A DNA stretch of 64,000 nt from Nemertoderma westbladi (Eukaryota; Animalia; Xenacoelomorpha), in NCBI GenBank assembly GCA_032718475.1, contig JAUCBJ010006694.1, forward strand, positions 29,167-93,166. Reading direction: 5' to 3'. This document shows, piece after piece, positions 1-30,588 of the stretch. The notes beneath the pieces are model-generated. The model saw only the letters and a list, made by a program, of their open reading frames with translations. It searched no databases and was not told the DNA's origin. The first letter of the stretch is position 1. Every line of letters begins with the position of its first letter. The position numbers and the translations under genes are program-made.

Positions 1-76
1 TAAAGTATATTTATAAATCAAAAGACATATAAATTTTGGCAGGTTAAACTGCTAAAGGTCTTCAAAAGCGCGTACA
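1..76 (+). repeat. 3' end (U5) of the 5' LTR of element A
   Basis: Near-identical to 10629-10704 and to the end of C's LTR (to 31339); ends ...GCGCGTACA. Confidence 0.9.
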
Positions 77-87
77 ATAACAGTCAT
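77..87 (+). promoter_or_regulatory. Putative primer-binding site, complementary to an LTR-internal 11-mer (self-priming type)
   Basis: ATAACAGTCAT directly abuts the LTR-terminal CA, has no TGG, and is the exact reverse complement of ATGACTGTTAT at 9948-9958 and 30563-30573. Confidence 0.7.
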
Positions 88-354
88 TGACTTTATTGCA
101 GTAAGCAATAAAGTTGAAAGTACCGGTCAAAACCGGTACTTCTGTAGGTCTGTAGGCAGGTAGGCCCAACTGTCCTAACCGGTACTTCCAGTATAAGTAC
201 ATTAGTATTATTTCGATTGTGATCTATAGTATATTGTAGGCTACCAGAGGAATAGGGATTGATCACCCCTCATTCTTTTGTATAGTTTACTTATTTCTGT
301 CAGTTTTATTTCCTAGTAAGTTAATATTGAGCTGAAGACGTGTAAGTCTGCTCA

Positions 355-9368: not shown

Positions 9369-9446
9369 CTGTTTAGAGTATTTACGTATATTAGAAACTG
9401 TGATTTTGTATATTTCATAGACTCAAATCCCATTTTCTGGGAGCGG

Positions 9447-10704
9447 TGTAAAAGCTTCTGTGGGATATAACTGGCCCCTTTGCTTCGCAATCCAGTTTCC
9501 CCCCAGGCGCTGGAATACTCTAAAAGGGTTCTCTAACTGTATATATATTCCCCTCGCCCGCAAGGTACCGTTACAGGTGTTTTAACGGACATAAAAGTCA
9601 TTCTGTTATATACGTGTTTTAGCGGACATGGTAAGGCAAAAAACCTGCAATGCACCAAATACCTTTCACAGCTTAGCCGTGATGATTCACATTACGACAT
9701 CTAACAGCTGGTTGCTGACATGGAAACAGCCATTGGACGCATGGTTCTTTGTTTGGCTTGAGCCAATCAGAGCGTTTTTTCCTGTCGACGTGTAGCTTTT
9801 CGGCCGATCATAAGGAGAGTGTTCAGTCTTACTGTTTTTTACTTGATACTTTGTTGTTATTGCTGTCTAAGCCAGAAACACCGGCTCTAGAGTTAATTCT
9901 TTTCATACTTTAAGAAGAAACATTAGTAGGCTTAAATTATAGAGCGTATGACTGTTATCAGTCAAATCCATTCACAATTCAATACTTTGTTGTTATTACT
10001 GTTCAACATACATTATTATACTGCTATTTACTGTTGTGTTTGGTTGAATATTATTTGGAGAACATATATAAAGAACCCAAATTTCCCAATTTTCTTGATA
10101 CACTACAGGTTAGAGAGACGGGTTATATATATAGCGATTGCGACTTATATTGTTGTGGTTTGTAGTGAATTTAATGCTATTTGATAAGCACTACATTGGT
10201 CCGTTGCTGTTCCCTTTATATATGATAAAATTCATTGACGGTCGGCAAATTAGTGAGCAGTATTGTGTGTTACCGGTAGTGTGCATGATTGTGATTGATA
10301 ACTAAGCATTTCCTAAAGAATGCGCCTCATACGTGAATCTTAAGCCTTACCGACTTACCGTTGTGATTAGTGTAAGTCATATCTCTGTTTACCTAGATAG
10401 AGCGCCACGTCCTAAAGGAACTGTTAATATTTCCCGAAAGTAAATAATATTAGTCAGAAATTAATTATTAACGATCAATCGAATAATACAATACCGTAAG
10501 CTTCACTGCAATAATAATTTAAGCCCTCAGAATCCAGTCTCCCGGGATTATCCAGCGGGTGAATGGACGCGCACTAGGCTGGCTTCTGCTAATGTTGTGT
10601 TTGTTGGTATTAAATATTTGTCATCTTCTAAAGTATATTTATAAACCAAAAGACATATAAATTTTGGCAGGTTAAACTGCTAAAGGTCTTCAAAAGCACG
10701 TACA
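9447..10704 (+). repeat. 3' LTR of element A (1258 bp)
   Basis: Starts TGTAAAAGC after the PPT and ends TACA; CCAAT box AGCCAATCAG at ~9761; homologous to 42909-44061 and 53438-54603. Confidence 0.9.
10090..10704 (+). ncRNA. Putative large conserved RNA structure in R-U5 of the LTR
   Basis: Conserved blocks with variable-length hairpin inserts and compensatory changes among three diverged LTRs (see findings). Confidence 0.55.
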
Positions 10705-11293
10705 ATAACAGTCATACGCTCTATAATTTAAGCCTACTAATGTTTCTTCTAAAAGTATGAAATGAATTGACTCTAGAGCCGTTGTTTCTGGCCTAGACAG
10801 CAATAACAACAAAGTATCAAGAAAAAACAGTAAGACTGAACACTCTCCCTATGATCGACCGAAAAGCTACACGTCGACAGGAAAAATCGCTCTGATTGGT
10901 TCAAGCCAAACAAAGAACCATGCGTCCAATGGCTGTTTCCATGTCAGCAACCAGCTGTTAGATGTCGTAATATGAATCATCACGGCTAAGCTATGAAAGG
11001 TATTTGTCGCATTGCAGGTTTTTTGTCTTACCATGTCCGCTAAAACACGTATATAGCAGAATGACTTTTATGTCCGTTAAAACACCTGTAACGGTACCTT
11101 GAGGGCGAGGGGAATATTTATACAGTTAGAGAACCTTTTTAGAGTATTCCAGCGCCTGGGGGGAAACTGGATTGCGAAGCAAAGGGGCCAGTTATATCCC
11201 ACAGAAGCTTTTACACCGCTCCCAGAAAATGGGATTTGAGTCTATAAAATATACAAAATCACAGTTTCTAATATACGTAAATACTCTAAACAG

Positions 11294-12187
11294 TTAGTCT
11301 TTCTTGCGCGGACGGCGTTTACGCAGTTTTTTAAAGCTAGCAAGAGTCCTTTTCTCTTTGGAGCGAGCCACTTTACAAGGAGGGCTATAACTCCTGGGTG
11401 AAGGGTGCAATATGATTGCATCAGAGGGTGTAGGATTATGGTCGGTGTATCCGCCAGTCGAAGTACCGGGTTGATTGACATCAACGTCAGGTGAGAGGGG
11501 TCTAACGGCTTTGAGAGCTCGTTTCAAGACAGCCGCTCTTACGGGTCCTTTACGAGTGGTCTGAACGAGGGCCGTGGGTGGACCATAGGCAGTTAGAAAC
11601 TTCCGGGGTTTAATGGTCCTTTCCAACTCGCGTTCGCGGGCTCGGTATTCGTAAGGCCTTCGATGTACTTCCTGCAACTCGGGATGTGAGTTAACAAACA
11701 AGTCTCCATAGTCCGGATCCTGACGGATATAATTGATTAAGTTATAGGAATGAAGGTCGCTAGGATTAACACTCCTGAGAAATTTGCGTACGAATTTAGT
11801 TGAAATACATTCTCCGACGCGCTTCAGTAGCTCGTAACTCGATATGCGTGATTTCTGTTCAACAGAAGCGAATAGATAAGGATGGAACGCATAAACTCCT
11901 TCGTAAGCGCGTCCGGGATAATAGCGATGGCGCGAATCACAATGTAAATCAGCGTTCGCTTCCCAAGCTCTGATGTAACGTAGTGTGATCATTTCATCTA
12001 CGCTTTCCAAATCGTGATTAAAAGGGCAATCGAAACTGGCGTGTCCCTTTAGTTGACAATGGTGACATTGAGTCATAAATTGAGGGCAAACCGCAAAAAC
12101 GTGCAAATTATTAAATCTGCAATACGCGCAATAAATTTCCATCGCCGGTTGTTCGTGGAAATAGGAACAGCGGACGTTTGTGTCCAT
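11294..12187 (-). CDS. Accessory zinc-knuckle protein (CCHC array, basic NLS-like C-terminus), element B
   Basis: CAYCRFNNLHVFAVC and CHHCQLKGHASFDC (Cx2Cx4Hx4C); C-terminal KKLRKRRPRKKD; open frame extends upstream to the TGA at 12344-12346. Confidence 0.65.
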   Translation of the reverse strand: MDTNVRCSYFHEQPAMEIYCAYCRFNNLHVFAVCPQFMTQCHHCQLKGHASFDCPFNHDLESVDEMITLRYIRAWEANADLHCDSRHRYYPGRAYEGVYAFHPYLFASVEQKSRISSYELLKRVGECISTKFVRKFLRSVNPSDLHSYNLINYIRQDPDYGDLFVNSHPELQEVHRRPYEYRARERELERTIKPRKFLTAYGPPTALVQTTRKGPVRAAVLKRALKAVRPLSPDVDVNQPGTSTGGYTDHNPTPSDAIILHPSPRSYSPPCKVARSKEKRTLASFKKLRKRRPRKKD

Positions 12188-12343
12188 GGGCGTAACATGG
12201 TCTCTCGATGCGCATAACCGACAACGTTGCCGAGAAACATAGTTGGCATGGCGATAATTGTACGCAGTGAGACACTGTGGACCTTGATACCATTCTAGGA
12301 TATAATCGTTGTCGCTGTTCCGGGCGCGATAGGCTGAATCTCC

Positions 12344-12742
12344 TCAGATTCTAGGCATATTGGTTCGTCTTCCCAGTCTGTTACGAATAGAATTTTCGTG
12401 ATCTATTTTCGGTTTATCGTTACGACTCCGCTGGGTATGATATTTAAATAGAACCATTTCCCTTTCGGTGTCTACATCGTCCGTATCATGTAAATCGATA
12501 GGATGGCCGGTAGTTAGGAAGTCCATATACGTACCATTACGATGCGTATAGCGAGCGGTGAATTTTCGATAGTCCAATTCACGCGCAAGTTGCTCTTGGG
12601 ACATCGGCGGTTCGATATAACGACCATCGTCCTCCGTAATGGTTGGATCGGCTTCACCGCGTATTAAGCTATCCACAAATGCTTGTAAAGGTAGAGTATA
12701 TCGCTCCCTAATACCAAGATCATCTTCTATTAACTCCGTCAT
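12344..12742 (-). CDS. Accessory ORF3 N-terminal part (132 aa, unknown function), element B
   Basis: Start MTELIEDDLGIRERY conserved in all four copies (MIELIEDD in D). Confidence 0.6.
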   Translation of the reverse strand: MTELIEDDLGIRERYTLPLQAFVDSLIRGEADPTITEDDGRYIEPPMSQEQLARELDYRKFTARYTHRNGTYMDFLTTGHPIDLHDTDDVDTEREMVLFKYHTQRSRNDKPKIDHENSIRNRLGRRTNMPRI

Positions 12743-13203
12743 ATCTGCTATCTGAGTTTATTAATATCAAATAAGTTTGTATTTAGGCGAGCGGGCGTCG
12801 CTGCCTACTTTTCTTTGCCCCCGGACAGTGGGATTCTCAGCGCCGATGTACCGTCGTCGCGGTGTTTACGCCAACATGTAGCAACAGCACGACAACGATA
12901 ACCGGCACAAGTCACTCCACTGTCCGTCCCAAAGGCTTGGATCCACTTAGGTTCTTTCTATAGGAGAGTTGGGCTATTTTTACAATTGCGACTAGCTACT
13001 GTAAACATACTTTAGCAGTAACATTCACCTATAAACGCACAAATTCCACACAACTGTCAACAACTGCACACACACAGGCCATTTGTCCGTTAGTCAGTGC
13101 CTTCCAGAATGTCACTTTATTACTGTGTATCCTTGGATACTAACAGTGTGCTATGTATTCTCTATGCTAGGCAATGGGACAAGCTTTCTATTGTTCTTTT
13201 AAC

Positions 13204-14739
13204 GTTCGCGCTATTCATTAATGATTTAGAGGCGGAACTACGGGATGGAGGAATTCAGGGCCTGGATGTAGGTGCGCTCAAACTTTTCCTGTTACTTTAT
13301 GCTGATGATATCGTGTTGGTTAGTGAAAGTATTAGTGGACTACAGGGTGCACTCGATATCCTTGGTTGCTATGCCGACTATTGGGGTTTGCGGGTTAACA
13401 TGGACAAGTCCAATATTATGATTTTTAAAAACGGTGGGAATCTTGCACAGCGTGAACGGTGGACTTTCCACAATCGTGAACTCAAAATTGTCTCTGACTA
13501 TACTTACCTAGGAGTAATATTTTCTCCCTCTGGCGGATTCAGGAAAGCGGAGTGTTCTCTTGCAGAGAAGGCCTCTAAAGCATATTTTGTACTCTTAAAA
13601 TATTTTTCGAAATTCCCAAACATTTCACTGAGCTTAAAAGTTCATATCTTCAATACACTTGTGAAACCGATCCTGGAATATGGAAGTGAAATCTGGGGTT
13701 TCCACAGCGCTCCAGAGTGCGAACGAGTTCAACTTAAATTTCTAAAACGGTTATTGGGGGTAAAGTCAGGAACACCTAACTTCATGAGTTATGGTGAAAC
13801 TGGAGTATTCCCGCTAGCATTGTCTAGGGAAATTCGTATAGTAAAATATTGGATTAAAATTATTAATTTACCAGACTCGCGTTTAGTCAAGCAGGCGTAT
13901 CTTATGCTACTTCAGGACTGTCTGACTTTCAATGACAGTAACTGGGTTTCTGGTGTGCGCGATCTGCTTAATAAGTCTGGTAAAAGTTGGGCGTGGGTCA
14001 ACCAGTCGGTCAGCTGTAATAAAATGTTTATTAAATCTCTAGAACGTACATTACAGGATAACTTCATCCAGTCTTGGTGGAGTGCGATAGAAAATTCTCC
14101 CAAGGGAATTTGGTATTTCAAGAGGGTGTTTGGGGCAGAAAACTACTTAAACTCACTTAGTGGTTACCCTACACTGTGTAAGACTGTGAGCCGCCTAAGG
14201 TGTTCCTCACACGATCTACAATTTGAATACGGACGTTGGCATAATGTACCGCGTAACGATAGATTATGCCAGCTCTGTAACCTCCAAGAAGTGGAGGATG
14301 AATACCACTTTGTACTTAAATGTCCGCTCTATCATGATCTACGCATTAAATTTTTGGCAGTAAGATATCATAGAAATCCTTCATCGGTCAAATTTCTTGA
14401 ACTCCTCAGTCTGACGTCGGATTCCAAAATTAAGCAGTTTGGTGTGTTTTTATATCACGCCTTTAAATTACGACTGGAGGCTAAAACCTAGTTAGTACGT
14501 ATTACGTGTGTTGAATGTTTGTGGTGTGAGTATGTGTTGGTAGTTCTTCGGTTTAGGTTGTTATTATGTAGATATAATATATATTATGTTCCTACTTTAC
14601 GCACTGGGTTCACCTATGTATTTCTTTTCTAAATGTATTTGTACTCCGGTATTGTAGCGTGCAGTTGATACTACATACTTTGCTCTCAACAATAGCCTTA
14701 ATTGGCTTGTTGTGATTAACAATAAACATTATAACATTA
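13204..14739 (+). mobile_element. 5'-truncated non-LTR retrotransposon (RT C-terminal half; RTEX-like) inserted in element B
   Basis: LLYADDIVL, YLGV, C-terminal RLCQLC...EDEYHF..C; coding to 14491; AATAAA plus short AACATTAT tail; TSD TTTAAC at 13198-13203 and 14740-14745. Confidence 0.85.
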
Positions 14740-15907
14740 TTTAACTTGTTTCTAATTCTAGCGTGGGTGTTGCTATGGTGACATTATGGAATGCTAGCGG
14801 TAGAATTAGGGTAATTCTCATGCATACAGATCTGGGATGCTATTTAGTAATAATTCTTTAATTGTCAATATCCTCTTTATGCATGATTTTGTTAATTTTA
14901 TCGGCTATTGACTATATGTTGGAGATTCTCGCACTCTAATACACTCAATAGGATGAATCTCCGCTCCCATGATCTATTAATTAATAGAATTTTGGGAATG
15001 TTATAAATTGTACAAAATGACAATTTATGAAATTCATTTAAAATATGAATTTAAATTTATTCCCGTGAATTTTATTATTTGATGTTAAAATTGACACAAT
15101 TTGATTCCAGAGCAGGTCTGGGGACATAGGATCCTTAATTCTATGAAATTTGTCTTTTAAGAGTATCGGGAAGTGCTACGATATCTTAATCGACTAGAAT
15201 TGTTAACGGATCCGAATTTTACAGATTTTAATAAATATTAAGTTAATATTTAAGATAGGCACCGATTTATTCCAGAACTTGTCTGGGGACGTTAACCACT
15301 GATTCTAGAATTTGTCTTTCAAGTATATCGGTGGGTGCCGCGATATCTTAATCGACTAGAATTACAGATGGTCAAAAAGTTTAACAGATTTATTTGCGTT
15401 TTACGCTACTGTTAGAGGGACATCACGCTACTATATGTATTATTTAATATAAGGTAGAAGAGCAATATCGCACGAAGCAATGTCAGTGTGAAGAGGCAAG
15501 TCGTTTCCAAGGTCTACCCAGAGCTTGGCTTAGCCGAGACACGAGGATCTGAACTTTGCATTCCTAATACTCTGCCTACCAATAATACTTGAATATAGTA
15601 GTGGCTTTATTGTACTTTAAGAAGTACGGACATTTCATCTTACTGTAGTCACGTATTTATAATATGATACTGACAGTAAGAAAAGAGAAAAAATTATTTC
15701 TCGCCGTCGCACTAAATATATATTATAAGTAATTACGTACGTAATAAACACTAATATATTGCACTAATCTACTAAATAATACTAAAATAACATTCTACTA
15801 AATAAAATTGAATAAAAACGATTATAATAAAGTACATAATAAAGTTCGCATGTAAAAATATAATAAAATAGATAAAACAATATAGTCATACACCCACTCC
15901 AGACGTA

Positions 15908-18900
15908 TCACGTTAGGGAGTCCCTAGATGTTTGAGGAATTAGGGAGGTGGTCGTGGGAAGAGTGTCTTGCCTTCCATAGTTTCCAGAGAGTTCCCTGTC
16001 TCTTTCCAGTAAACATAAACGACCAACTGGGCGATTGAGTTGTTGCGTCTCAAAGATGATGCCTGGTTTCTTGAAGTTACGCCGCATGACGATGAGTTCT
16101 ACTGAGCGTACTAAACCATCATCTGAAATGTGTGTCTCGATGATACGACCTGTCTGCCACCGTTTACGTGGGAGGTCTGGATCTACAATAAGCACCATAT
16201 CTCCGGCGCTGACGTTTTCTTGCTGCGCAAACCACTTAGTTCGAAGTTGTAGCGTGGGCAGATAATGTTTCTCGAAATGGTCAGCGAAACGACGGGATAG
16301 CAACTGCATAAGTTGCCAAGTTCGATGGCAGTATTCGTCTCCGTCGGCAATCTCCGATCGTGGGAGCATGGCTACGGGTTTCTTCAGTAGGAAGTGCGCG
16401 GGTGTTAGCGCTTCCAGGGAATTGGGACTCGATGAGACTGGCATAAGCGGTCTCTCGTTGAGATAGGCAGCGATTTCCTCCATTAACGTCCGCAAAAGTT
16501 CGTCGGTGAGATACGCGCGGCATGGCACTATAAAGTGAAATGCGGTTTTGACACTTCGAATTAATCTCTCCCAACTTCCTCCCCACCAAGGGGCGTCGGC
16601 AGCGTTGAAGGTCCAGCTAGACGCTGTTATCCTTAGCTGGTCGTCCACCTGTGTTTGGTTCCAGTCCTTCACGTAAGCCTGTATCTCGTTGTTGGCACCT
16701 ATGAAGTTCGTTCCTTTATCCGATCTCATGGTATTACTTGTCCCGAAGCGAGCGATCTGTCGTCGTAAACTTAAGACGAAGCTGTTAGTAGATAGATCGT
16801 TCACCATATCGAGATGGATGGCTCTACAAGTCATGCACACGAAAATGACACACCATCTCTTGACTATAGTCCTCGCACGATATACTTCAATAGGGCCAAA
16901 TAAATCTACACCAGTATTAGTAAAAGGTGGTTCATAGAAGCTTACTCGTTCCCTAGGTAATTCTGCCTCTCGCTGTGTTAAAGGCCTACTGAATGCTTTC
17001 CTACAGGGTATGCAGTTCCTAAGAACTTGGTTCAGAGCTCTACGGGGTTTATCAAAATAATAGCGAGTTCGAATTTCGCTAAGAATTCGTTCTCTACCAG
17101 CATGGTAAAGTTTACCGTGAACGTCTACAATCATCTTGATTTGTACTTCAAGATTTCTAATAAGTATGGGGAATTTGGTGTCAAAGGATAAGGGCGCGTT
17201 GGTGAGTCTTCCTCCAACACGTATTAACCCATCTATCATTGTGCTCGAGAATCGATCCCTTAAGCGCATCTGTGGATTTCTCAACAACAGGAAGTACTTT
17301 TCGGAATCCTCATAGCATTGCAGGAGTCTCAGTATCTGTTTATTTGTTTCTTCATACTCCTGGTGACTAATTTTCTCTTTTAGAAAATGATCAGATATCT
17401 TATATTTGGGTAAATTCTTAATAACATGAACTTGTGCAGATGTCAATGGAGCGTGATCACTAATGGTCTTCGTCCTGGAGTAGTGATGATGAAAACATCG
17501 TCTTAAATATGTGACGGCTTTACAGAGCCGATTCCAGGAACTGTAATGATGCATTGCTCTCTGCAGCATGGGTGAGATTCCTTGCGAGACGTCTGGTATT
17601 CCAGATTTCCAATCTCTATCTCTAATTTCCACAACAGACTTATTTGTGTTGAGGGATTGTGGATCCGAAACATCATTCCCGGAAGTGTGTAATACTGATA
17701 GATCGATAGTCGGTTTAAATAACTTCGATTTACTCGCCCGGGTTTTAGGTTTGACGGTCTCCGCTCCCTTGGCTTGTCTAATCTCTGCCGTAGTAAGGTG
17801 AGGAGGCCATTCATCCTCTTCCTTGCTCAGGAAGTCGGGTCCACCCAACCAATCTGGAGTATCTATCAGTTCCTGTGGAGTTGCTCCCCTGGAGGCGATA
17901 TCGGCTGGATTAATCGTACCAGGGCAATGTCTCCATTGATCTATCTTTGTGCGACTAAGAATAATAGCTACTCGGTTAGTAACAAAAACGCTAAACTGAC
18001 AGACTTCATTGGTGAGATACTCCAACACGAGTAAAGCGTCGGTCCAATAAACCGTTTTCTCCAGTGGATAGTCGATTTGTTCCGTTACGTTCCGGCCGAT
18101 GGCTGTAGCGTATAAAGCCGCCTTTAACTCCGCTCGAGGAACCTTTAACTTGTTGTTAATCAATGCCTTAGAGGTAACCAAGGCGACCTTGATTCCATCC
18201 GGAGTTTCGACTCGCAGATATGCTACTATACCTATTCCCATATCGCTGGCGTCTCCAAACACATGGAGTTGATAAGAATACTTAGGAAGAACATGGCCAA
18301 AATATGCATGGGAAATTATAAAGTTCTCGATGGCAGGTAGAGAATCTTCCCATTTCATCCATTTCTTCAACAATTCTCCCTTAAGCGGATCGTCCCATGA
18401 GTGGTTTTCAAGCCACATCTGTTGTACTAAACTCCGAGCAATCAATATAACTGGGCTAATAAATCCCAATGGGTCGAAATAAGTGCTCAGGATACTTAAA
18501 CAAATCCGTTTGGTCCGAACTGGATTATCTCGCTGTTTCAACTGAAAAAACAGGATGTCTCTTTCAGTGTCCCACTTCAAGCCTAGCGTCTTGGTTTCAG
18601 GAAGATCGTCCTTTATTAAGTCTAGATCTTTCGCTCCGCGGTCTTCTACCGGTATCGCTTCCAGAAACTCACGGGAGTTGCTAGTGAATTTCGTCAGTCG
18701 AAATCCACCTCTTTTCAAACACTCTACCGTTCCTTTCGCGACAGCTATGGCTTCTTCTACTGATGGAAGGGACCTTAAATTGTCGTCCATGTATATATTG
18801 CGTTTTATGTTGTCTATCACTTCTTTGGAGAAGGAGTCTCGGTTATCATTCGCAGTGGTTCGCACCACGGAGCAGGCGTTGGAAGGGCTTGATATGATCC

Positions 18901-19135
18901 CAAAAGCCTGGATGGTCATCCAGTACTCTACCGGTTTCTGGTTGAGGTCTCCTTCAGGCCACCACAGAAATCTCAGGCTATCTCTATCTCTATCCAGCGC
19001 CTTGACTTGTAAGAACATTCCTTCTATATCAGAGGCGAACGCGATGGAATATTGTCTTAATCTTAATAGTATTCCCAACAAAGATTGGAGTAAGTTGGGT
19101 CCTGGTAACAACTCGGAATTGAGGGATTGGCCCAT
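15908..19135 (-). CDS. pol: Bel/Pao Pol (RT-RNase H-integrase), N-terminally truncated, element B
   Basis: DIEGMFLQV, YMDD, VFGDASDMG, WTDA, NPADIASRG, H..H..CIPC, GVDLFGP, SDKGTNF, PWWGGSWERL. Confidence 0.95.
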   Translation of the reverse strand: MGQSLNSELLPGPNLLQSLLGILLRLRQYSIAFASDIEGMFLQVKALDRDRDSLRFLWWPEGDLNQKPVEYWMTIQAFGIISSPSNACSVVRTTANDNRDSFSKEVIDNIKRNIYMDDNLRSLPSVEEAIAVAKGTVECLKRGGFRLTKFTSNSREFLEAIPVEDRGAKDLDLIKDDLPETKTLGLKWDTERDILFFQLKQRDNPVRTKRICLSILSTYFDPLGFISPVILIARSLVQQMWLENHSWDDPLKGELLKKWMKWEDSLPAIENFIISHAYFGHVLPKYSYQLHVFGDASDMGIGIVAYLRVETPDGIKVALVTSKALINNKLKVPRAELKAALYATAIGRNVTEQIDYPLEKTVYWTDALLVLEYLTNEVCQFSVFVTNRVAIILSRTKIDQWRHCPGTINPADIASRGATPQELIDTPDWLGGPDFLSKEEDEWPPHLTTAEIRQAKGAETVKPKTRASKSKLFKPTIDLSVLHTSGNDVSDPQSLNTNKSVVEIRDRDWKSGIPDVSQGISPMLQRAMHHYSSWNRLCKAVTYLRRCFHHHYSRTKTISDHAPLTSAQVHVIKNLPKYKISDHFLKEKISHQEYEETNKQILRLLQCYEDSEKYFLLLRNPQMRLRDRFSSTMIDGLIRVGGRLTNAPLSFDTKFPILIRNLEVQIKMIVDVHGKLYHAGRERILSEIRTRYYFDKPRRALNQVLRNCIPCRKAFSRPLTQREAELPRERVSFYEPPFTNTGVDLFGPIEVYRARTIVKRWCVIFVCMTCRAIHLDMVNDLSTNSFVLSLRRQIARFGTSNTMRSDKGTNFIGANNEIQAYVKDWNQTQVDDQLRITASSWTFNAADAPWWGGSWERLIRSVKTAFHFIVPCRAYLTDELLRTLMEEIAAYLNERPLMPVSSSPNSLEALTPAHFLLKKPVAMLPRSEIADGDEYCHRTWQLMQLLSRRFADHFEKHYLPTLQLRTKWFAQQENVSAGDMVLIVDPDLPRKRWQTGRIIETHISDDGLVRSVELIVMRRNFKKPGIIFETQQLNRPVGRLCLLERDRELSGNYGRQDTLPTTTSLIPQTSRDSLT

Positions 19136-19169
19136 ATATAGAGCAGAGCCATCAAATACGACTCGTACT

Positions 19170-20392
19170 ATAGTGCAAGGGAGTCACTGAAGGCCCTCGT
19201 GTCTAGCGAACCATGAATCAACATGGTGCCGTGGTACCGTCTAGTTGGCCTGTTGCCGTACTGCCAGTCCTGTACACAGTAGGGGTGGTGGCATGGCGTG
19301 ATTTGTGGTTTATGTGGTCTATGTGGTAGGTCTATGTGTGGTATGTATGAGTTGACCAGACTCTTTACTGTCTCCAATCGGTTGCCAAAACGTGTCTTTT
19401 CCCAGGGTAGCACTATTGGAATGGAGGTGTTGCATCGGAATGGACAGGTTCCTGATGATTCTGTTGGTACTACTATTGGAATGGAGGTGGCACCCGGAAT
19501 ATCGGCTGCAAGGAGGGGTTAGTGTTGTAGTGTGGTCCGAGTGAATGATACTCTGGAATCTGTGGTTTGTGTGTGTACGTGGTATACGTGAGTGTATGTA
19601 TGGCCACTGCGAGTGGGTATGGGAACCCTTACCGGTTGGTTCAGTCGCCGCTGGTTATTAGTAGGACCATATTTTACTGCGCCTCAGCATACTTTGTGCA
19701 CACAAAGTTATTTTACCCTGTCGGTAAAATAAAGTACTCTCGACTTTTTATTAGTCGATACAATTTTGACCCCTCTTATTTTGTCACCGATTTTGTCTTC
19801 CCCGATTATGTCCTCTGTGTGTGCGTGGTATGCGTCAGATTTTGTGTTTACCGTAGTGTACTTAATATTGTGAACATCTATTGAGTACACGTGTACAGTG
19901 ACTGGTAAGTGGTTACTTGTTCCTAGCTTTCGAGCTAGTCAGTATTGTTTGCGGAACCGACTTCCCCTCAATACTGCCGGCGAGGCGGGTGAAAACGGTC
20001 AATATTCCATGTGGGTAGCGCAAGCCCGCTTGGGACAAGACCGTCGGTTTGGCTCAAGGGCGACCTTGATGCTCGATCGCTATCGACTGGTCCACCCGCC
20101 GGTTGACTCTCTGAGTTGGCTCAATGTACAGTCAGGCCACAGTAAGTTGACAGTAGCCGACCATCTGGCTACACCGACGAGCTGTGCCGGTGTGATCGGG
20201 GGATTGAAAAGTGAACCCGGGAAGCATCGGGCTACCCTCCGGCCCAGTCTGATCGGAGTCGGACTGGCCCCAAGGGTGGTGGGACAGCGTCCGCCTCATG
20301 GGTGCGCCTCGGAGTCATCAGAGAGGAGCCCAGAAGGACGCAAGCGAGGTCTCCAAGTACAAGAAACAGACCAGTGGAAATCCCAGCTGTCT
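19170..20392 (+). mobile_element. Unrelated fragment, probably the 3' end, PPT and LTR of another LTR element, wedged between B and C
   Basis: Purine tract AAGGAGGGG followed by TGTTGTAG at 19523; AATAAA at ~19728; GC-rich, hairpin-dense segment at 19970-20330; no similarity to A's leader. Confidence 0.4.
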
Positions 20393-23300
20393 GAGAGACT
20401 AACTTATGAAGAACCAACCGATGCCACTCTTTCTCAAGTGGAAGGCGAAGAGACCTCAGAGAAACCACGAACGAGAGACGCCATAGACATTTATCTGTCC
20501 GACTATCAGCGATTCCTAGGAGACGAAGAATTGAGGAGACGGCTGTCTGGACTTTCCCCCAATAGTGAAGGAACCCAGCGTGTGTTAGATTCAATCGATG
20601 CTGAAATGTTAGCTGCTAACCAAGCAGAATTTGATGAAAAACTCCGCCTCGCTAGAGTCCAAGAAGAAAGGGTAAAGAAAAGATGGATAGAGGAACAAAA
20701 GGCGGCGGCCACGGCAGAAGCAGAAGCAGAAAGAAAAGCAGCGGCGGTAGAAGTAGAAGCAGAAAGAATAGCAGCAAAGGCAGCAGCGGCAGAAGCAGAA
20801 GCAAAAAGAAAGGCAGCGGCGGCAGAAGTAAAGGCGGAAAGGGGAGTGGCAGAAGCAGAACGGAGAGCGTCTGAGCAGACTACCCAACTGGAGTTGGAAA
20901 ATCTGCAAGAGACGCAAGACAACATAAATAAACAGTTAACTGCTAGTCACATGCAGATGATGAGAAAATCTACTCCTAAACGCCAGGGATATACGTCATC
21001 GGAGGAAAGCGAAACCACCGATCCTGAAGGCGGAGGAAATAGATCTCGTCTAAGCAGGCGTAGAAAAACATCTTACCGTCACAAATTGCCTGATTTGCCC
21101 CCAGCTGTTAAAAGACAGCTAGCTAGCACAGACTTAGGTAGTACGGAACCCATAGACCAAACTGTTCAGGTCAAAAGACTCCCTACAATAGTTGATGAGC
21201 CTGAAATAATTAGGCCTGTCGTTCCCAAAGTCATTTCTGTGTTAGAGACCCCTGTACTTCCAGAGCTTCACTCTAAATTCCCTTTACACAGTACTACACT
21301 GCCTGTACCCGGTAGAACAGTCCATGAGAATATCCCTGTCCTGGAAGCTGAGAGAGAAATCAAAGATTTGTCTCCCGTCGTCCCGCGTCAGCCCGCTACT
21401 ATGTTGGCGACTCCCGCTTCGGCGGTCGAGTGGGTAGAGGAGGGACGGCGGGGGATGAATCTCCTGCTCGGACAGATGCAGGAGACTGTCCACCAGCTTA
21501 AGGGAACAGTAAGGGAAAGTAGGGCCGAATTGCAAGAAGTGCAGCAAAGTATCGCGCTAGAACGCGACAAATTAGTCAATATACAAAAGGGAATACCAAT
21601 ACCCCCTGTAACATTGTGTCAACCTGTTAGGTCTGAAGTATTACATGCGCAAGGTGTGGAGCCTACACGCATCTATACTGCTAGTGAAGTTGAAACTCCT
21701 ATAGCAAACCCTATTAAGGGTGATTATAGACCTGTTATTAATGATATTCCCTATAGACCTGATAATGATCCGAGAAATTTATATACCGATAATTCGATAT
21801 TAAATAACACGATGGCCCAAGAAAGCTTTACGCGTCAGATGGCTAGAACAGAAGCCCGCCAAGCGGTCAAAGTGGGAGAGATCGTCAAATTCAATGGAGA
21901 TGAGATGAAATGGTTACCTTTCAACGAATATTACAAAGACAGCATACAGAATTCTGTACTATCTAACGGAGAGAAACTTAGGTTCCTCATCAAGTGCTTG
22001 GAAGGACCTCCCAAGTTAATGGCGTTAAAGTTTATTGGACATCCAGAAGGATTAAGACAAGTATGGGATACATTAAACATCAGGTATGGTAACAAGGATA
22101 ACATAGCTAAGTATTTGTATGCAAAATTAGTAGCCCCCCGACACTTCCTTAGTAGCGGGATTATAGAGTTTTCCGATGAAATTCAGGAAATCTGTAGACA
22201 ATTGGACTGGTTAGGTAAGTCTCATGAATATCAGAGTTCAATGGTTATTGGAGCCGTAGTCTCTACTTTACCAAAGGGTGGAGTATGTACACGCTGGGAC
22301 AAGAAAGTGTTGTACATGAATGAACAACAACAACGAAGTCCTACCATGGCTGATCTCATGTCCTTCTTAGATGGTGAGGTAAAACTACAACTCATCAAGC
22401 AGTCCAGAGAGAAAACATCGGAAAATAAGGTAAGTGAGAAACCCGCTTCTAGGAGAAGAATAACACCGGTGTGTTACACTGACGACGGCGAAAGCCAAGT
22501 TTCTCAAGAAGAGGACAGCGGGAAAGATACTGAGCGATCTTACTACGTCGACAAAACCTCAAAAGATGTAAGTAAATACAAGGCTCGAAACAACGATAGG
22601 AGAGAACAGGTTGCCAAGACCCCTCCTCAGTCTCCTAACAGAATGCACCGAAGAAAACCCGAAGAAAAAACGAGAGTGCATCAAGTTACCCAAGGTAAAG
22701 TGAGTAACATAAAACCTAACTGTGCGCTGTGCGACGGGACCCACCGTTTGAGTGCGTGTGCTGAATTTCTAAAGAAATCCCTTGTAGACAGACGTGCAGT
22801 TGTGTGAGACAAGCGGTTATGCTATAATTGCCTCAGACCAGGACACCAACGGCGAACCTGTTACTCCGACATAAAGTGTGCAAAGTGTGGCGCGAAACAT
22901 CACATCTTGTTACACAGTGAGTTCGAACGAGACAAACAGAGTCAGGTAAGTGAGCCCGAACTACATGTCCAATTCAGTGATGTAAACGACACTGATCAGG
23001 AGTCTGAGATGGAAGGATTCTATACTGACGAATTCTCCGACGCCAACGAATCCTGTTATCTAATCAATACCGCAGTGTATCGAGCACTTACTTATGAAAA
23101 GGACACCAACAATGAGTTTCCCCCAACTACTTTTGCCAAACAACCATCTTGGAAAGCTCCAACTTCCAACGTAGGAATCAGAGAATTTCCTGTGGTGCAG
23201 GTAAGAGTTCACGGTCTTAACAAAAGTTACATAGTGAACGCCCTCCTTGACTCCGGCAGCACAGGAACATTCATCGATCAAGAACTAGCCGAGGATATCT

Positions 23301-26300
23301 TTGCTGGACAACCCAAGTTCCGGACTAAATTGAATATGTCAGGAATTATGCAGGTTTGGAAATCTACCTTAACGGCAGATTACTATGTAGGTGTGTTGTC
23401 CACCCCCCAGGATAAGTTAGGAACACAAGGTATAAGGTCGGTAAAAATGGTGGCTATAAAGAACTTCGCTACTACTCAAGCAGACCTTTATAATTGGGAC
23501 GAGGATGAGAGCATCCAACATCTTGAGATACCTCGATTCCAGACAGATTATCCTGGAGTGCAAATCCTCATCGGCCAAAACGCGCATGAGGCGCTCGAAA
23601 CATTGGAGAAACGGCCTGCTCAACCACAGCCACTGCAAACCTATGCAGTAAGAACTAGAGTAGGTTGGTACTTTACTGGCCCTTCCCGCAGGACTCTCGA
23701 AGAGAGAATGCCACAAGAACACACATACCAAGTACACGATTGGGAAGTGGAGAGCAGTGAGGTGGACGAACTAACTGAGGGAACACCATACTCCTCAGAT
23801 AATGACGACATCTACCAACTCTTCGATGAAGAGAACACAATCGACCTACTTACAGAAAACCAAACTTGGAAAAGTCAAGTGAACCTATGTCAACTGATTC
23901 ACCCATCGGAACCCATCGCTTACAATGACGAACTAAACGATGAGATAGAGCGCTGCAACGCTAGAACTCGGGACGAACTAGCCGTACGATTCTTTACTCA
24001 GGAACTGGTAGAGCCCAATTCATATGATAAGGCTCTATCGATAGAAGAAGAAAGAGCCAAGCAAATCCAGGAAACAACCACACGTTTTTTAAAGGACCAA
24101 GGTAGGTATGAAATCGGCCTACCATTTCGAAAACGAGAACCTAGATTTATAAATAACAGACCCTTGGCGGAGAAAAGAATCGCTCAATTACATCGACGAC
24201 TTACAGCTAATGCTTCAGCGAAAGAAATGTACCAAACTCAGCTGAAGAAATTTATAACAAAGGGATACGCGGAGCGAGTACCGGAAGGAACACCAGTGAC
24301 TGAGAGAACGTATTATTTAACACATCATTACGTTCCCAAACCCGGTAAACCCCATGAAGTACGAGTCGTATTTGATGGCTCTGCTCTATATATGGGCCAA
24401 TCCCTCAATTCCGAGTTGTTACCAGGACCCAACTTACTCCAATCTTTGTTGGGAATACTATTAAGATTAAGACAATATTCCATCGCGTTCGCCTCTGATA
24501 TAGAAGGAATGTTCTTACAAGTCAAGGCGCTGGATAGAGATAGAGATAGCCTGAGATTTCTGTGGTGGCCTGAAGGAGACCTCAACCAGAAACCGGTAGA
24601 GTACTGGATGACCATCCAGGCTTTTGGGATCATATCAAGCCCTTCCAACGCCTGCTCCGTGGTGCGAACCACTACGAATGATAACCGAGACTCCTTCTCC
24701 AAAGAAGTGATAGACAACATAAAACGCAATATATACATGGACGACAATTTAAGGTCCCTTCCATCAGTAGAAGAAGCCATAGCTGTCGCGAAAGGAACGG
24801 TAGAGTGTTTGAAAAGAGGTGGATTTCGACTGACGAAATTCACTAGCAACTCCCGTGAGTTTCTGGAAGCCATACCGGTAGAAGACCGCGGAGCGAAAGA
24901 CTTAGATTTAATAAAGGACGATCTTCCTGAAACCAAGACGCTAGGCTTGAAGTGGGACACTGAAAGAGACATCCTGTTTTTTCAGTTAAAACAGCGAGAT
25001 AATCCAGTTCGGACCAAACAGATTTGTTTAAGTATCCTGAGCACTTATTTCGACCCATTGGGATTTATTAGCCCAGTTATATTGATTGCTCGGAGTTTAG
25101 TACAACAGATGTGGCTTGAAAACCACTCATGGGACGATCCGCTTAAGGGAGAATTGTTGAAGAAATGGATGAAATGGGAAGATTCTCTACCTGCCATTGA
25201 GAACTTTATAATTTCCCGTGCATATTTTGGCCATGTTCTTCCTACGTATTCCTATCAACTCCATGTGTTTGGAGACGCCAGCGACATGGGAATAGGTATA
25301 GTAGCATATCTGCGAGTCGAAACTCCGGATGGAATCAAGGTCGCCTTGGTTACCTCTAAGGCATTGATTAACAACAAGTTAAAGGTTCCTCGAGCGGAGT
25401 TAAAGGCGGCTTTATACGCTACAGCCATCGGCCGGAACGTAACGGAACAAATCGACTATCCACTGGAGAAAACGGTTTATTGGACCGACGCTTTACTCGC
25501 TTTACAGGAACTGATAGATACTCCAGATTGGTTGGGTGGACCCGACTTCCTGAGCAAGGAAGAGGATGAATGGCCTCCTCACCTTACTACGGCAGAGATT
25601 AGACAAGCCAAGGGAGCGGAGACAGTCAAACCTAAAACCCGGGCGAGTAAATCGAAGTTATTTAAACCGACTATCGATCTATCTGTATTACATACTTCCG
25701 GGAATGATGTTTCGGATCTACAATCCCTCAACACAAATAAGTCTGTTGTGGAAATTAGAGATAGAGATTGGAAATCTGGAATACCAGACGTCTCGCAAAG
25801 AATCTCACCCATGCTGCAGAGAGCAATGCATCATTACAGTTCCTGGAATCGGCTCTGTAAAGCCGTCACATATTTAAGACGATGTTTTCATCATCACTAC
25901 TCCAGGACGAAGACCACTAGTGATCACGCTCCATTGACATCTGCACAAGTTCATGTTATTAAGAATTTACCCAAATATAAGATATCTGATCGTTTTCTAA
26001 AAGTGAAAATTAGTCACCAGGAGTATGAAGAAACAAATAAACAGATACTGAGACTCCTGCAATGCTATGAGGATTCCGAAAAGTACTTCCTGTTGTTGAG
26101 AAATCCACAGATGCGCTTAAGGGATCGATTCTCGAGCACAATGATAGATGGGTTAATACGTGTTGGAGGAAGACTCACCAACGCGCCCTTATCCTTTGAC
26201 ACCAAATTCCCCATACTTATTAGAAATCTTGAAGTACAAATCAAGATGATTGTAGACGTTCACGGTAAACTTTACCATGCTGGTAGAGAACGAATTCTTA

Positions 26301-27471
26301 GCGAAATTCGAACTCGCTATTATTTTGATAAACCCCGTAGAGCTCTGAACCAAGTTCTTAGGAACTGCATACCCTGTATGAAAGCATTCAGTAGGCCTTT
26401 AACACAGCGAGAGGCAGTATTACCTAGGGAACGAGTAAGCTTCTATGAACCACCTTTTACTAATACTGGTGTAGATTTATTTGGCCCTATTGAAGTATAT
26501 CGTGCGAGGACTATAGTCAAGAGATGGTGTGTCATCTTCGTGTGCATGACTTGTAGAGCCATCCATCTCGATATGGTGAACGATCTATCTACCAACAGCT
26601 TCGTCTTAAGTTTACGACGACAGATCGCTCGCTTCGGGACGAGTAATACCATGAGATCGGATAAAGGAACGAACTTCATAGGTGCCAACAACGAGATACA
26701 GGCTTACGTGAAGGACTGGAACCAAAGACAGGTGGACGACCAGCTAAGGATAACAGCGTCTAGCTGGACCTTCAACGCTGCCGACGCCCTTGGTGGGGAG
26801 GAAGTTGGGAGAGATTAATTCGAAGTGTCAAAACCGCATTTCACTTTATAGTGCCATGCCGCGCGTATCTCACCGACGAACTTTTGCGGACGTTAATGGA
26901 GGAAATCGCTGCCTATCTCAATGAGAGACCGCTTATGCCAGTCTCGTCGAGTCCCGATTCCCTGGAAGCGCTAACACCCGCGCACTTCCTACTGAAGAAA
27001 CCTGTAGCCATGCTCCCACGATCGGAGATTGCCGACGGAGATGAATACTGCCGTCGAACTTGGCAACTTATGCAGTTGCTATCCCGTCGTTTCGCTGACC
27101 ATTTCGAGAAACATTATCTGCCCACGCTACAACTTCGAACTAAGTGGTTTGCGCAGCAAGAAAACGTCAGCGCTGGAGATATGGTGCTTATTGTAGATCC
27201 AGACCTCCCACGTAAACGGTGGCAGACAGGTCGTATCATCGAGACACACATCTCAGATGATGGTTTAGTACGCTCGGTAGAACTCATCGTCATGCGGCGT
27301 AACTTCAAGAAGCCAGGCATCATCTTTGAGACGCAACAACTCAATCGCCCAGTTGGTCGTTTATGTTTACTGGAAAGAGACAGAGAACTCTCCGGGAACT
27401 ATGGAAGGCAAGACACTCTTCCCACGACCACCTACCTAATTCCTCAAACATCTAGGGAGTCCCCAATGTGA
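20393..27471 (+). pseudogene. Single-frame gag-pol of copy C with lesions
   Basis: TGG>TGA stop at 22805-22807; in-frame RNase H deletion at ~25500 versus B; frameshift at ~26790 (APWWGG); PR LLDSGS, RT YMDD and integrase DDE motifs present. Confidence 0.9.
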
Positions 27472-29097
27472 TACGTTTGGAGTGGGTGTATGACTATATT
27501 GTTTTATCTATTTTATTATATTTTTATATGCGAACTTTATTATGTACTTTATTATAATCGTTTTTATTCAATTTTATTTAGTAGAATGTTATTTTAGTGA
27601 TTATTTAGTAGATTAGTGCAATATATTAGTGTTTATTACGTACGTAATTACTTATAATATATATTTAGTGCGACGGCGAGAAAATAATTATTTTTCTCTT
27701 TCCTTACTGTCCGTATCATATTATAAATACGTGACTACAGTAAGATGAAATGTCCGTACTTATTAAAGTACAATAAAGCCACTACTATATTCAAGTATTA
27801 TTGGTAGGCAGAGTATTAGGAATGCAAAGTTCAGATCCTCGTGTCTCGGCTAAACCAAGCTCTGGGTAGACCTTGGAAACGACTTGCCTCTTCACACTGA
27901 CATTGCTTCGTGCGATATTGCTCTTCTATCTTATATTAAATAATACATATAGTAGCGTGATGTCCCTCTAACAGTAGCGTAAAACGCAAATTAATCTGTT
28001 AAACCTTTTGACCATCTGTAATTCTAGTCGATTAAGATATCGTGGCACCCACCGATATACTTGAAAGACAAATTCTAGAATCAGTGGTTAACGTCCCCAG
28101 ACAAGTTCTGGAATAAATCGGTGCCCATCTTAAATATTAATGTAATATTTATTAAAATCTGTAAAATTCAGATCCGTTAACAATTCTAGTCGATTAAGAT
28201 ATCGTAGCACTTCCCGATACTCTTAAAAGACAAATTTCATAGAATTAAGGATCCTATGTCCCCAGACCTGCTCTGGAATCAAATTGTGTCAATTTTAACA
28301 TCAAATAATAAAATTCACGGGAAAAAATTTAAATTCATATTTTTAAATGAATTTCATAAATTGTCATTTTGTACAATTTATAACATTCCCAAAATTCCAT
28401 TAATTACTAGATCATGGGAGCGGAGATTCATCCTGTTGAGTGTATTAGAGTGCGAGAATCTCCAACATATAGTCAATAGCCGATAAAATTAACAAAATCA
28501 TGCATAAAGAGGATATTGACAATTAAAGAATTATTATTAAATAGCATCCCAGATCTGTATGCATGAGAATTACCCTAATTCTACCGCTAGCATTCCATAA
28601 TGTCACCATAGCAACACCCACGCTAGAATTAGAAGCAAGTTAAAAGAACAATAGAAAGCTTGTCCCATTGCATAGCATAGAGAACATACCACACTGTTAG
28701 TATCCAAGGATACACAGTAATAACGTGACATTCTGGAAGGCACTGACTAACGGACAAATGGCCTGTGTGTGTGCAGTTGTTGACAGTTGTGTGGAATTTG
28801 TGCGTTTATAGGTGAATGTTACTGCTAAAGTATGTTTACAGTAGCTAGTCACAATTGTAAAAATAGCCCAACTCTCCTATAGAAAGAACCTAAGTGGATC
28901 CAAGCCTTTGGGACGGACAGTGGAGTGACTTGTGCCGGTTATCGTTGTCGTGCTGTTGCTACATGTTGGCGTAAACACCGCAACGACGGTACATCGGCGC
29001 TGAGAATCCCACTGTCCGGGGGCAAAGAAAAGTAGGCAGCGACGCCCGCTTGCCTAAATACAAACTTATTTGATATTAATAAACTCAGAAAGCAGAT

Positions 29098-29496
29098 ATG
29101 ACGGAGTTAATAGAAGATGATCTCGGTATTAGGGAGCGATATACTCTACCTTTACAAGCATTTGTGGATAGCTTAATACGCGGTGAAGCCGATCCAACCA
29201 TTACGGAGGACGATGGTCGTTATATCGAACCGCCGATGTCCCAAGAGCAACTTGCGCGTGAATTGGACTATCGAAAATTCACCACTCGCTATACGAATCG
29301 TAATGGTACGTATATGGACTTCCTAACGACCGGCCATCCTATCGATTTACATGATACGGACGATGTAGACACCGAAAGGGAAATGGTTCTATTTAAATAT
29401 CATACCCAGCGGAGTCGGAACGATAAACCGAGAATAGATCACGAAAATTATATTCGTAACAGACTGGGAAGACGAACCAATATGCCTAGAATCTGA
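29098..29496 (+). CDS. Accessory ORF3 N-terminal part, element C
   Basis: Nearly identical to 12344-12742. Confidence 0.6.
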   Translation: MTELIEDDLGIRERYTLPLQAFVDSLIRGEADPTITEDDGRYIEPPMSQEQLARELDYRKFTTRYTNRNGTYMDFLTTGHPIDLHDTDDVDTEREMVLFKYHTQRSRNDKPRIDHENYIRNRLGRRTNMPRI

Positions 29497-29652
29497 GGAG
29501 ATTCAGCCTATCGCGCCCGGAACAGCGACAACGATTACATCCTAGAATGGTATCAAGGTCCACAGTGTCTCACTGCGTACAATTATCGCCATGCCAACTA
29601 TGTTTCTCGGCAACGTTGTCGGTTATGCGCATCGAGAGACCATGTTACGCCC

Positions 29653-30588
29653 ATGGACACAAACGTCCGCTGTTCCTATTTCCACGAACAACCGGTGATG
29701 GAAATTTATTGTGCGTATTGCAGACTCAATAACTTGCACATTTTTGCGGTTTGCCCTCAATTTATGACTCAATGTCACCATTGTCAACTAAAGGGACACG
29801 CCAGTTTCGATTGCCCTTTTAATCACGATTTGGAAAGCGTAGATGAAATGATCACACTACGTTACATCAGAGCTTGGGAAGCGAACGCTGATTTACATTG
29901 TGATTCGCGCCATCGTTATTATCCTGGACGCGCTTACGAAGGAATTTATGCGTTCCATCCTTATCTATTCGCTTCTGTCGAACAGAAATCACGCATATCG
30001 AGTTACGAACTACTGAAGCGCGTCGGAGAATGTATTTCAACTAAATTCGTACTCAAATTTCTCAGGAGTGTTAATCCTAGCGACCTTCATTCCTATAACT
30101 TAATCAATTATATCCGTCAGGATCCGGACTATGGAGACTTGTTTGTTAACTCACACCCCGAGTTACAGGAAGTACATCGACGGCCTTACGAATACCGAGC
30201 CCGCGAACGCGAGTTGGAAAGGACCATTAAACCACGGAGGTTTCTAACTGCCTATGGTCCACCCACGGCCCTCGTTCAGACCACTTGTAAAGGACCCGTA
30301 AGAGCGGCTGTCTTGAAACGAGCTCTCAAAGCCGTTAGACCCCTCTCCCCGGACGTTGATGTCAATCAACCCGGTACTTCGACTGGCGGATACACCGACC
30401 ATAATCCTACACCCTCTGATGCAATCATATTGCACCCTTCACCCAGGAGTTATAGCCCTCCTTGTAAAGTGGCTCGCCCCAAAGAGAAAAGGACTCTGGC
30501 TAGCTTTAAAAAACTGCGTAAACGCCATCCTAGGCCATCCATAGGCTTAAATTATAGAGCGTATGACTGTTATCAGTCCAATTCATAA
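29653..30588 (+). CDS. Accessory zinc-knuckle protein, element C (C-terminus altered by deletion)
   Basis: Nearly identical to 11294-12187; same frame as 29098-29496. Confidence 0.6.
   Translation: MDTNVRCSYFHEQPVMEIYCAYCRLNNLHIFAVCPQFMTQCHHCQLKGHASFDCPFNHDLESVDEMITLRYIRAWEANADLHCDSRHRYYPGRAYEGIYAFHPYLFASVEQKSRISSYELLKRVGECISTKFVLKFLRSVNPSDLHSYNLINYIRQDPDYGDLFVNSHPELQEVHRRPYEYRARERELERTIKPRRFLTAYGPPTALVQTTCKGPVRAAVLKRALKAVRPLSPDVDVNQPGTSTGGYTDHNPTPSDAIILHPSPRSYSPPCKVARPKEKRTLASFKKLRKRHPRPSIGLNYRAYDCYQSNS

What the first reader, a model, noticed from the sequence alone, without database searches (positions are those of the whole stretch)
77..87. Candidate tRNA-independent, self-priming Bel/Pao family
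Seen: the 5' LTR ends at 76 and is followed immediately by ATAACAGTCAT, with no TGG. This is the exact 11-nt reverse complement of ATGACTGTTAT inside the same LTR (9948-9958; also 30563-30573), ~750 nt upstream of the LTR end. Established: LTR elements normally prime on a tRNA 3' end, and Bel/Pao element E in this window shows a tRNA-Tyr-type PBS. Self-priming by an 11-nt duplex between the transcript's own 5' region and the PBS is known for Tf1/sushi-group Ty3/gypsy elements. Inference: this Bel/Pao lineage independently uses its own RNA as primer. I know of no such report, but could not search. The TSS is unknown and may lie upstream (CCAAT ~9761, TCAGT ~9823), in which case the primer would be an internally cleaved fragment.
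Basis: partly seen in the sequence, partly recalled or inferred. Interest (0 to 1): 0.88.

Follow-up and report, generated by a model that had tools for sequence, protein, structure and literature searches.

The report
Self-priming Bel/Pao retrotransposon with mispriming fossil
A high-copy animal jumping gene of the Bel/Pao group carries, where a host tRNA normally lands to start DNA copying, 11 letters that match its own terminal repeat, so it likely starts copying with a piece of its own RNA, and a neighbouring upside-down copy fused at exactly those 11 letters is probably a frozen accident of that process.

Summary
Observation confirmed. The 5' LTR ends at 76; 77-87 is the exact complement of LTR 9948-9958 (3/5000 shuffles), has no TGG, and is the family's real LTR-leader junction in other samples. 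That fits plus-strand synthesis copying a long self-primer; a DNA template switch is the rival. In 21 of 62 distant Bel/Pao loci (11 of 620 shuffles) the PBS is complementary to an exon-exon joint of an intron in the element's own LTR; the window family has a contiguous primer and no such intron. Against: the commonest PBS variant differs at base 85, within-family covariation, the transcription start and host tRNAs could not be tested, and the RT sits unresolved beside a tRNA-type element. Self-priming about 0.78. It works like Tf1 but is not a Tf1/sushi element. Ten paper searches found no Bel/Pao report; this scan noted Bel/Pao self-priming before in other genomes.

The parts
1..76 (+). 3' end of the 5' LTR of element A
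   Evidence: 1-87 matches 10629-10715 at 97.7%; ends ...ACA like the solo LTR
77..87 (+). Primer-binding site, no TGG, complement of LTR 9948-9958
   Evidence: junction with the leader present in other runs
87..117 (+). Predicted 13-bp hairpin directly after the PBS
   Evidence: one X4 contig keeps the stem with a different loop
2215..6461 (+). gag region of A in two frames (DUF1759); most of pol is deleted
9439..9446 (+). Polypurine tract
   Evidence: directly before TGT in A, B and D
9447..10704 (+). Complete LTR between A and the B-C unit
9929..9940 (+). Arm of a predicted long-range helix with 10514-10525
   Evidence: 12 perfect pairs in A and C (1 and 4 of 1000 shuffles); 8 pairs with two double changes in the solo LTR and 7 in D at the homologous place, not significant alone
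9948..9958 (+). Candidate self-primer (3' 11 nt)
   Evidence: best PBS partner in the LTR, -12.7 against -8.2 kcal/mol for the next
10419..10426 (+). Rival 8-nt PBS partner, invariant in four LTRs
10514..10525 (+). Second arm of the long-range helix
10567..10701 (+). Predicted helix 10567-10572 with 10696-10701, ending 3 nt before the PBS position
   Evidence: 2 of 6 pairs with change on both sides among 4 LTRs
10705..19169 (-). Inverted copy B, running from pol into the LTR and ending exactly at the primer's last base, fused to the LTR end; an unrelated RT fragment is inserted at about 13204-14739
   Evidence: 68 differences in 4282 columns to C in pol
19170..31339 (+). Copy C: different leader, gag, pol (Peptidase_A17, Integrase_H2C2, DUF5641), extra Cys/His-rich ORF 29497-30588, 3' LTR lacking PPT and U3; primer 11-mer at 30563-30573
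42909..44061 (-). Solo LTR of a diverged subfamily, 5-bp target duplication; 11-mer variant at 43678-43688
53438..60520 (-). Diverged, 5'-truncated copy D with complete 3' LTR (53438-54603); 11-mer variant at 54150-54160

Best explanation
This is a high-copy Bel/Pao retrotransposon whose primer-binding site (77-87) is complementary to 11 bases of its own LTR (9948-9958), and it likely primes reverse transcription with its own RNA instead of a tRNA. Shown: the complementarity, its place at the LTR-leader junction, the exact inverted junction at 10704/10705, and self-complementary PBSs in relatives. Inferred steps: the transcript starts at or some tens of bases before 9948; 9948-9958 pairs with the PBS across a structured 746-nt stretch; the RNA is cut after 9958, probably by the element's RNase H as in Tf1; RT extends the new 3' end, and the minus strand jumps to the 3' repeat. 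Because the 3' LTR copy of the 11-mer must also be in the RNA, it could be cut and prime instead. Plus-strand synthesis would then copy that long primer, giving LTR, then inverted element, then element, which is the B-C unit (about 0.6 for this origin of B).
For: Chance 3/5000 shuffles, control 15/24,290. Best site in the LTR for both the window PBS and the common variant. No TGG, whereas ICTV describes an 18-nt tRNA PBS for the family (PMC8742986, whole text). B stops at the primer's last base and abuts the LTR end with no base lost or added; the PBS is 1 of 22 among 3390 LTR/leader 11-mers with an inverted match in C. The LTR is C-like downstream (8/642 differences in 10061-10704) and 18/479 from B upstream, which fits B-C being one unit joined to A. 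Relatives: 10 of 16 loci with a readable LTR end and 21 of 62 eligible loci against 11 of 620 shuffles (17 distinct junctions) have a PBS complementary over 11-16 nt to a splice joint of their own LTR, with matched changes between sister families (L011/L012, L038/L070, L043/L074). A helix with double changes sits 3 nt before the PBS, as in the Tf1 'pretzel' (PMC10085805, passages).
Against: Most contigs covering base 85 read T, not C (X1 54,594 of 74,814 summed depth; X3 all). That leaves a G-U pair (-10.2 against -12.4 kcal/mol) unless most LTRs differ too, which could not resolve. Single contigs in X4/X5 differ at further PBS bases (81, 84-87). D and solo 11-mers pair poorly with the common PBS (-6.2 and -2.2) and their own PBSs are unseen. 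The helix has p about 0.8 when folding starts at 9930-9948 but 0-0.29 from 9823-9927; it crosses the 9929-9940 helix, which the program cannot form together with it. The window family lacks the relatives' intron, and its RT is a long branch, unresolved beside L050, which has a TGG-type PBS, outside the 23-row group that holds the spliced-primer loci (88/81, unstarred). So the relatives support the mechanism by analogy only. The U5 mosaic could also reflect constraint.
Confidence: 0.78

Rival explanations
1. A host RNA fragment primes, for example a 5' half of tRNA-Asn, whose anticodon loop (recalled, no call) would pair with about 8 bases from 78 on with G-U pairs; the LTR match is a secondary structure or chance.
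For: The PBS core 78-84 is the best conserved part and bases 85-87 vary; half-tRNA primers are known in Ty1/copia (PMC6317226, passages). Host tRNAs were not available.
Against: Shorter and weaker than the 11-bp self match; gives no reason for the 3/5000 match or for B ending at 9958; relatives show self-complementary PBSs of many different sequences.
Confidence: 0.1
2. The 11-bp pairing is real but regulatory (it closes the 5' structured domain or masks the PBS), and the primer is something else.
For: The LTR is rich in predicted long-range helices; no cut site was observed.
Against: The pairing starts at the first base after the LTR, where priming has to start; no tRNA-type site lies beside it.
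Confidence: 0.07
3. Self-priming, but from the invariant 8-mer at 10419-10426.
For: Identical in A, C, D and solo; pairs 8 bases of the common PBS variant (-8.5 kcal/mol).
Against: Weaker than the 9948 site for both PBS versions; p at most 0.01 in folds; B ends at 9958, not 10426.
Confidence: 0.05
4. For the B junction only: a DNA-level template switch at the 11-nt inverted microhomology made the inverted copy, not reverse transcription. Self-priming may still hold.
For: It gives the same sequence; the locus shows other repair-like scars (C's LTR deletion with a short templated filler); the second junction 19169/19170 cannot be checked because C's leader has no homologue here.
Against: About 14 separate sites (22 of 3390 11-mers) offer such homology (A's leader used as a stand-in for C's), so hitting the PBS is unlikely by chance.
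Confidence: 0.4

Closest known systems
Tf1/Tf2/Tj1 and the Tf1/sushi group (Ty3/gypsy chromoviruses)
   Same: PBS directly after the 5' LTR is complementary to the element's own LTR; flanking helices beside the PBS (PMC10085805 and PMC4600332, passages).
   Different: Bel/Pao enzymes; primer and PBS lie 746 nt apart; the primer may not be the first bases of the RNA, since 9929-9940 also pairs; relatives build the primer across an intron.
Ty1/copia TAR, Houba, Osr-1 and plant Tcn1 (predicted self-priming)
   Same: Self-priming called from a match of at least 10 nt between LTR and the 0-5 nt after it (PMC6317226, passages); the window element meets that criterion.
   Different: Other superfamilies, in plants.
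Belpaoviridae / Bel/Pao
   Same: DUF1759, Peptidase_A17, Integrase_H2C2, DUF5641 in Bel/Pao order; TG...CA LTR; short PPT; 5-bp target duplication.
   Different: ICTV gives an 18-nt PBS for host tRNA-Arg or -Gly and calls replication poorly understood (PMC8742986, whole text). This family has no such PBS, no relative above about 45% RT identity, and a Cys/His-rich extra ORF.

Membership tests
Bel/Pao (Belpaoviridae) | Bel/Pao gag-pol domains, integrase after RT/RNase H | tested here: met
   Pfam; 412 hits, the listed best 120 all carrying PF05380
Bel/Pao (Belpaoviridae) | TG...CA LTRs, PPT, target duplication | tested here: met
Bel/Pao (Belpaoviridae) | 18-nt PBS for a host tRNA 3' end (ICTV description) | tested here: not met
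   no TGG after base 76; family membership rests on the enzymes, so this marks a variant
Bel/Pao named clade (Sinbad, Sparrow, Surcouf, Suzu, Dan and others) | RT/RNase H placement with reference elements | tested here: inconclusive
   no named references in hand; long unresolved branch
Tf1/sushi group | Ty3/gypsy chromovirus RT and integrase | tested here: not met
   Bel/Pao domains, no chromodomain hit
Tf1-type self-priming (mechanism) | PBS complementary to own LTR over at least 10 nt within 0-5 nt of the LTR end | tested here: met
   11 nt at offset 0
Tf1-type self-priming (mechanism) | Primer is the 5' end of the transcript | not testable with these tools
   no RNA reads; folding is ambiguous
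Tf1-type self-priming (mechanism) | Two flanking duplexes (pretzel) | tested here: inconclusive
   upstream helix has double changes in 4 LTRs; downstream duplex only 5 bp, -5.1 kcal/mol
Tf1-type self-priming (mechanism) | Cleavage by RNase H and covalent extension of the primer | not testable with these tools
   the B junction is indirect evidence only
Splice-built Bel/Pao primer (this scan's notes; relatives here) | Canonical intron in the LTR whose joint completes the primer | tested here: not met
   window scan empty; contiguous match 11 nt beats the best spliced match, 10 nt

The most novel reading that the evidence does not exclude
A large part of Bel/Pao is tRNA-independent. Most members build the primer by splicing an intron in the 5' LTR, which keeps the 3' LTR copy from priming. 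This lineage carries a ready-made primer, so its 3' copy can be cut and prime, and the B-C unit is a genomic fossil in which reverse transcriptase copied about 7 kb of its own primer and marked the cut site to the base.
Probability: 0.4. Interest if true: 0.88.

Novelty: new variant of a known kind. Interest (0 to 1): 0.72.

Why it matters
The ICTV account has Belpaoviridae primed by host tRNA and admits that replication is poorly understood. Self-priming in this third LTR superfamily would mean the mechanism arose repeatedly or is ancient, and that PBS-based annotation misreads many animal elements. The junction at 10704/10705 predicts the cut site to the base, which makes the claim directly testable by RNA end mapping. 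It also suggests a way for retrotransposons to create long inverted duplications.

Tried and rejected
No whole genome is held, so no host tRNAs or full-length copies could be read; no tRNA gene in the window. An LTR-end pattern found 0 stretches in viral and in metagenome contigs; the alignment search of viral contigs gave 34 candidates, 0 confirmed. No RNA holder listed; X4 is only guessed to be RNA. No contig bridging 10704/10705 among the 30 pieces shown of 1149; the table keeps the longest pieces, so this is no evidence either way. One search also could not give variant frequencies at the LTR 11-mer, because alignments start there. Rfam: nothing at gathering score in the window and one noise hit in the LTR, so a known ribozyme making the cut is not supported. 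An extended primer-leader duplex was dropped because the leader bases form their own hairpin. A splice-made primer in the window family was rejected. C's LTR restarting near 9927 was considered as a mark of the transcription start, but the filler looks like DNA repair. The 'U5helix' column was one base out of register and is not used. LTR, leader and ORF3 have no match in the 79 loci. Blind scan without position limits: 24/79 against 31/237 shuffles, with about 4 hits inside coding regions that are chance; hence the constrained rerun. Three of the 16 readable loci showed no self match (L020, L039, L075; L020 gained one with a 4-base later LTR end). Papers on Bel/Pao (PMC3118150, PMC554778, PMC6238403, PMC8556966, PMC8220671; term look-ups only) say nothing on self-priming; PMC1563812 was not held.

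Full report
Observation. The 11-mer ATAACAGTCAT stands at 77-87 and 10705-10715, and its complement at 9948-9958 and 30563-30573. The LTR is 9447-10704. Its 3' end is fixed by a solo LTR at 42909-44061 with a 5-bp target duplication and by copies C and D, so 77 is the first base after the 5' LTR. The match occurred in 3 of 5000 shuffles (11 with offsets 0-5) and in 15 of 24,290 control 11-mers. Laying four runs on 1-700 showed a very high-copy family (5217 contigs in X1) and contigs that span LTR end, 11-mer and leader in X1, X3 and X4 (32 of 6756 pieces shown). X1 may be the window's own sample; X3, X4 and X5 are other samples. So 77-87 occupies the PBS position.

Family. Pfam gives DUF1759, Peptidase_A17, Integrase_H2C2 and DUF5641: Bel/Pao. 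No close relative exists in two protein searches (about 27-44% identity). In RT-RNase H trees (90 rows FastTree; 29 chosen rows IQ-TREE) it is a long branch (1.1-1.3), unresolved beside L050 and P0094. No named clade references were in hand.

The LTR at 9447-10704 is also followed by the 11-mer, but there it is the start of an inverted copy, B (10705-19169). B runs from pol through the PPT into the LTR and stops at 9958's equivalent, abutting the LTR end with no base lost or added. B is not a fold-back of A: it differs from A at 18 of 479 LTR columns and from C at 68 of 4282 pol columns, while A's LTR is only 8 of 642 from C downstream of 10060. The simplest reading is one unit, LTR - inverted B - C, joined to A by LTR recombination. 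In reverse transcription the plus strand copies the LTR and then the primer (established for LTR elements; own knowledge). A primer that was a long element RNA ending at 9958 would give exactly this junction. The 3' LTR copy of the 11-mer must be in the RNA, because the minus-strand jump needs sequence beyond 9958. The rival is a DNA template switch at the same 11 bases; 22 of 3390 LTR/leader 11-mers, about 14 sites, offer such homology. I put 0.6 on the reverse-transcription origin. Recurrence could not be tested: no bridging contig among 30 of 1149 pieces shown.

RNA structure. The 9948 site is the best PBS partner in the LTR (-12.7 against -8.2 kcal/mol; -10.5 against -8.5 for the common variant). 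Folding the natural stretch up to 10715 gives the helix p about 0.8 from starts 9930-9948 and 0-0.29 from 9823-9927. The drop comes with a crossing helix, 9929-9940 with 10514-10525: 12 perfect pairs in A and C (1 and 4 of 1000 shuffles), 8 pairs with two double changes in the solo LTR and 7 in D at the homologous place (134 and, for D's longest match elsewhere, 502 of 1000, so not significant alone). If it forms in the 5' leader, the RNA starts at least 19 bases before the primer, unlike Tf1; it could equally form at the 3' end. A helix ending 3 bases before the PBS has double changes in 2 of 6 pairs across four LTRs, three of them independent (the structure was derived from these sequences). 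A 13-bp hairpin follows the PBS. Rfam finds no known ribozyme.

Variation that does not fit neatly. At base 85 most covering contigs read T (X1 54,594 of 74,814 summed depth, 26 contigs; X3 all, 16 contigs). That leaves a G-U pair or implies an LTR variant that could not count; five LTR-site pieces shown begin at 10705, four with one difference over 49-58 bases. Single X4/X5 contigs differ at 81 and 84-87. D and solo 11-mers pair weakly with the common PBS (-6.2, -2.2), and their own PBSs are not in the window. The within-family covariation test is therefore open. An 8-mer at 10419-10426, invariant in four LTRs, is a weaker rival site.

Relatives. Earlier notes of this scan (8 findings in at least 3 other genomes; unchecked AI notes) suggested primers made by splicing, so I tested that on other DNA. 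One search returned 79 loci (the best 80 of 483 confirmed hits, from 31 of 64 parts of the collection). Of these, 37 had distant direct repeats and 16 a readable 5' LTR end. Ten of the 16 had an 11-16-nt match between PBS and the joint of a GT-AG intron in their own LTR (0-1 of 20 shuffles each); L059 had 10 nt, L037 a contiguous 10 nt, L050 a TGG-type site (tRNA label recalled), and three had none. A position-constrained scan found 21 of 62 eligible loci against 11 of 620 shuffles, 17 distinct junctions, mostly with GTAAGT donors and pyrimidine-rich acceptors. Sister families keep the pairing with different letters (L011/L012, L038/L070, L043/L074). These loci share hosts and ancestry and are not 21 independent events. 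The window family has no such intron and falls outside their group with weak support, so they show that Bel/Pao can self-prime, not that this family inherited it.

Literature. Ten searches found no paper on self-priming in Bel/Pao; subscription journals, Repbase and supplements were not seen. Read: PMC8742986 whole (tRNA-primed Belpaoviridae); passages of PMC6317226 (self-priming in Tf1/sushi, Tcn1 and copia TAR), PMC10085805 (pretzel), PMC4600332 (Tj1), PMC5445492, PMC5443660, PMC3601003, PMC6238403, PMC8220671 and PMC554778; term look-ups with no occurrence in PMC3118150 and PMC8556966. The role of RNase H in Tf1 rests on a title in a reference list and on recall.

Verdict. A real feature. 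It works most likely like Tf1 self-priming (0.78) and is not a Tf1/sushi element: a new variant of a known mechanism in a superfamily described as tRNA-primed. Interest 0.72.

Noticed in passing
window 29497-30588 (+), 11294-12343 (-), 55096-56241 (-): Extra sense ORF after integrase, rich in Cys/His knuckle-like motifs, no Pfam hit; atlas leads to zinc-knuckle clusters score under 0.9.
   Followed up: partly
window 10052-10704: About 650 nt of the LTR stay about 75% identical across diverged subfamilies, with a nearly invariant 40-nt block and repeated CTAAAG motifs: probably a large structured RNA, no Rfam match.
   Followed up: partly
L001-L079 (21 loci): Bel/Pao LTRs with a 76-426-nt intron whose splice joint is complementary to the PBS.
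   Followed up: yes
L077 about 513-522: Exon 1 of this relative ends in the same 9 bases as the window's primer, followed by a splice donor; the tree does not place the two together.
   Followed up: no
window 19170-20391: C's leader and gag N-terminus have no similarity to A's, although the frame is open from 19874 into the shared gag: a swapped 5' module.
   Followed up: partly
window about 30527-30542: C lacks PPT and U3; the joint holds a short filler that repeats both flanks, like end-joining repair.
   Followed up: partly
window 3900-4500 against 21600-22200: Patch of 98-100% identity between A and C within 83-93% flanks: recombination or gene conversion.
   Followed up: no
window 45656-49552 (-), 49680-49725: Unrelated Bel/Pao element E; its TGG-type primer site is split by 27 nt and no LTR pair was found.
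   Followed up: partly
window 41141-41920 (-); 32447-35982 (+); 13094-14491 (+); 61054-61566 (+): GIY-YIG frame (Penelope-like), a PHD plus RT element (LINE-like) and two further RT fragments.
   Followed up: no
L055, L061: Contig with a perfect 6.1-kb tandem repeat of a Bel/Pao element: tandem elements or an assembly loop.
   Followed up: no
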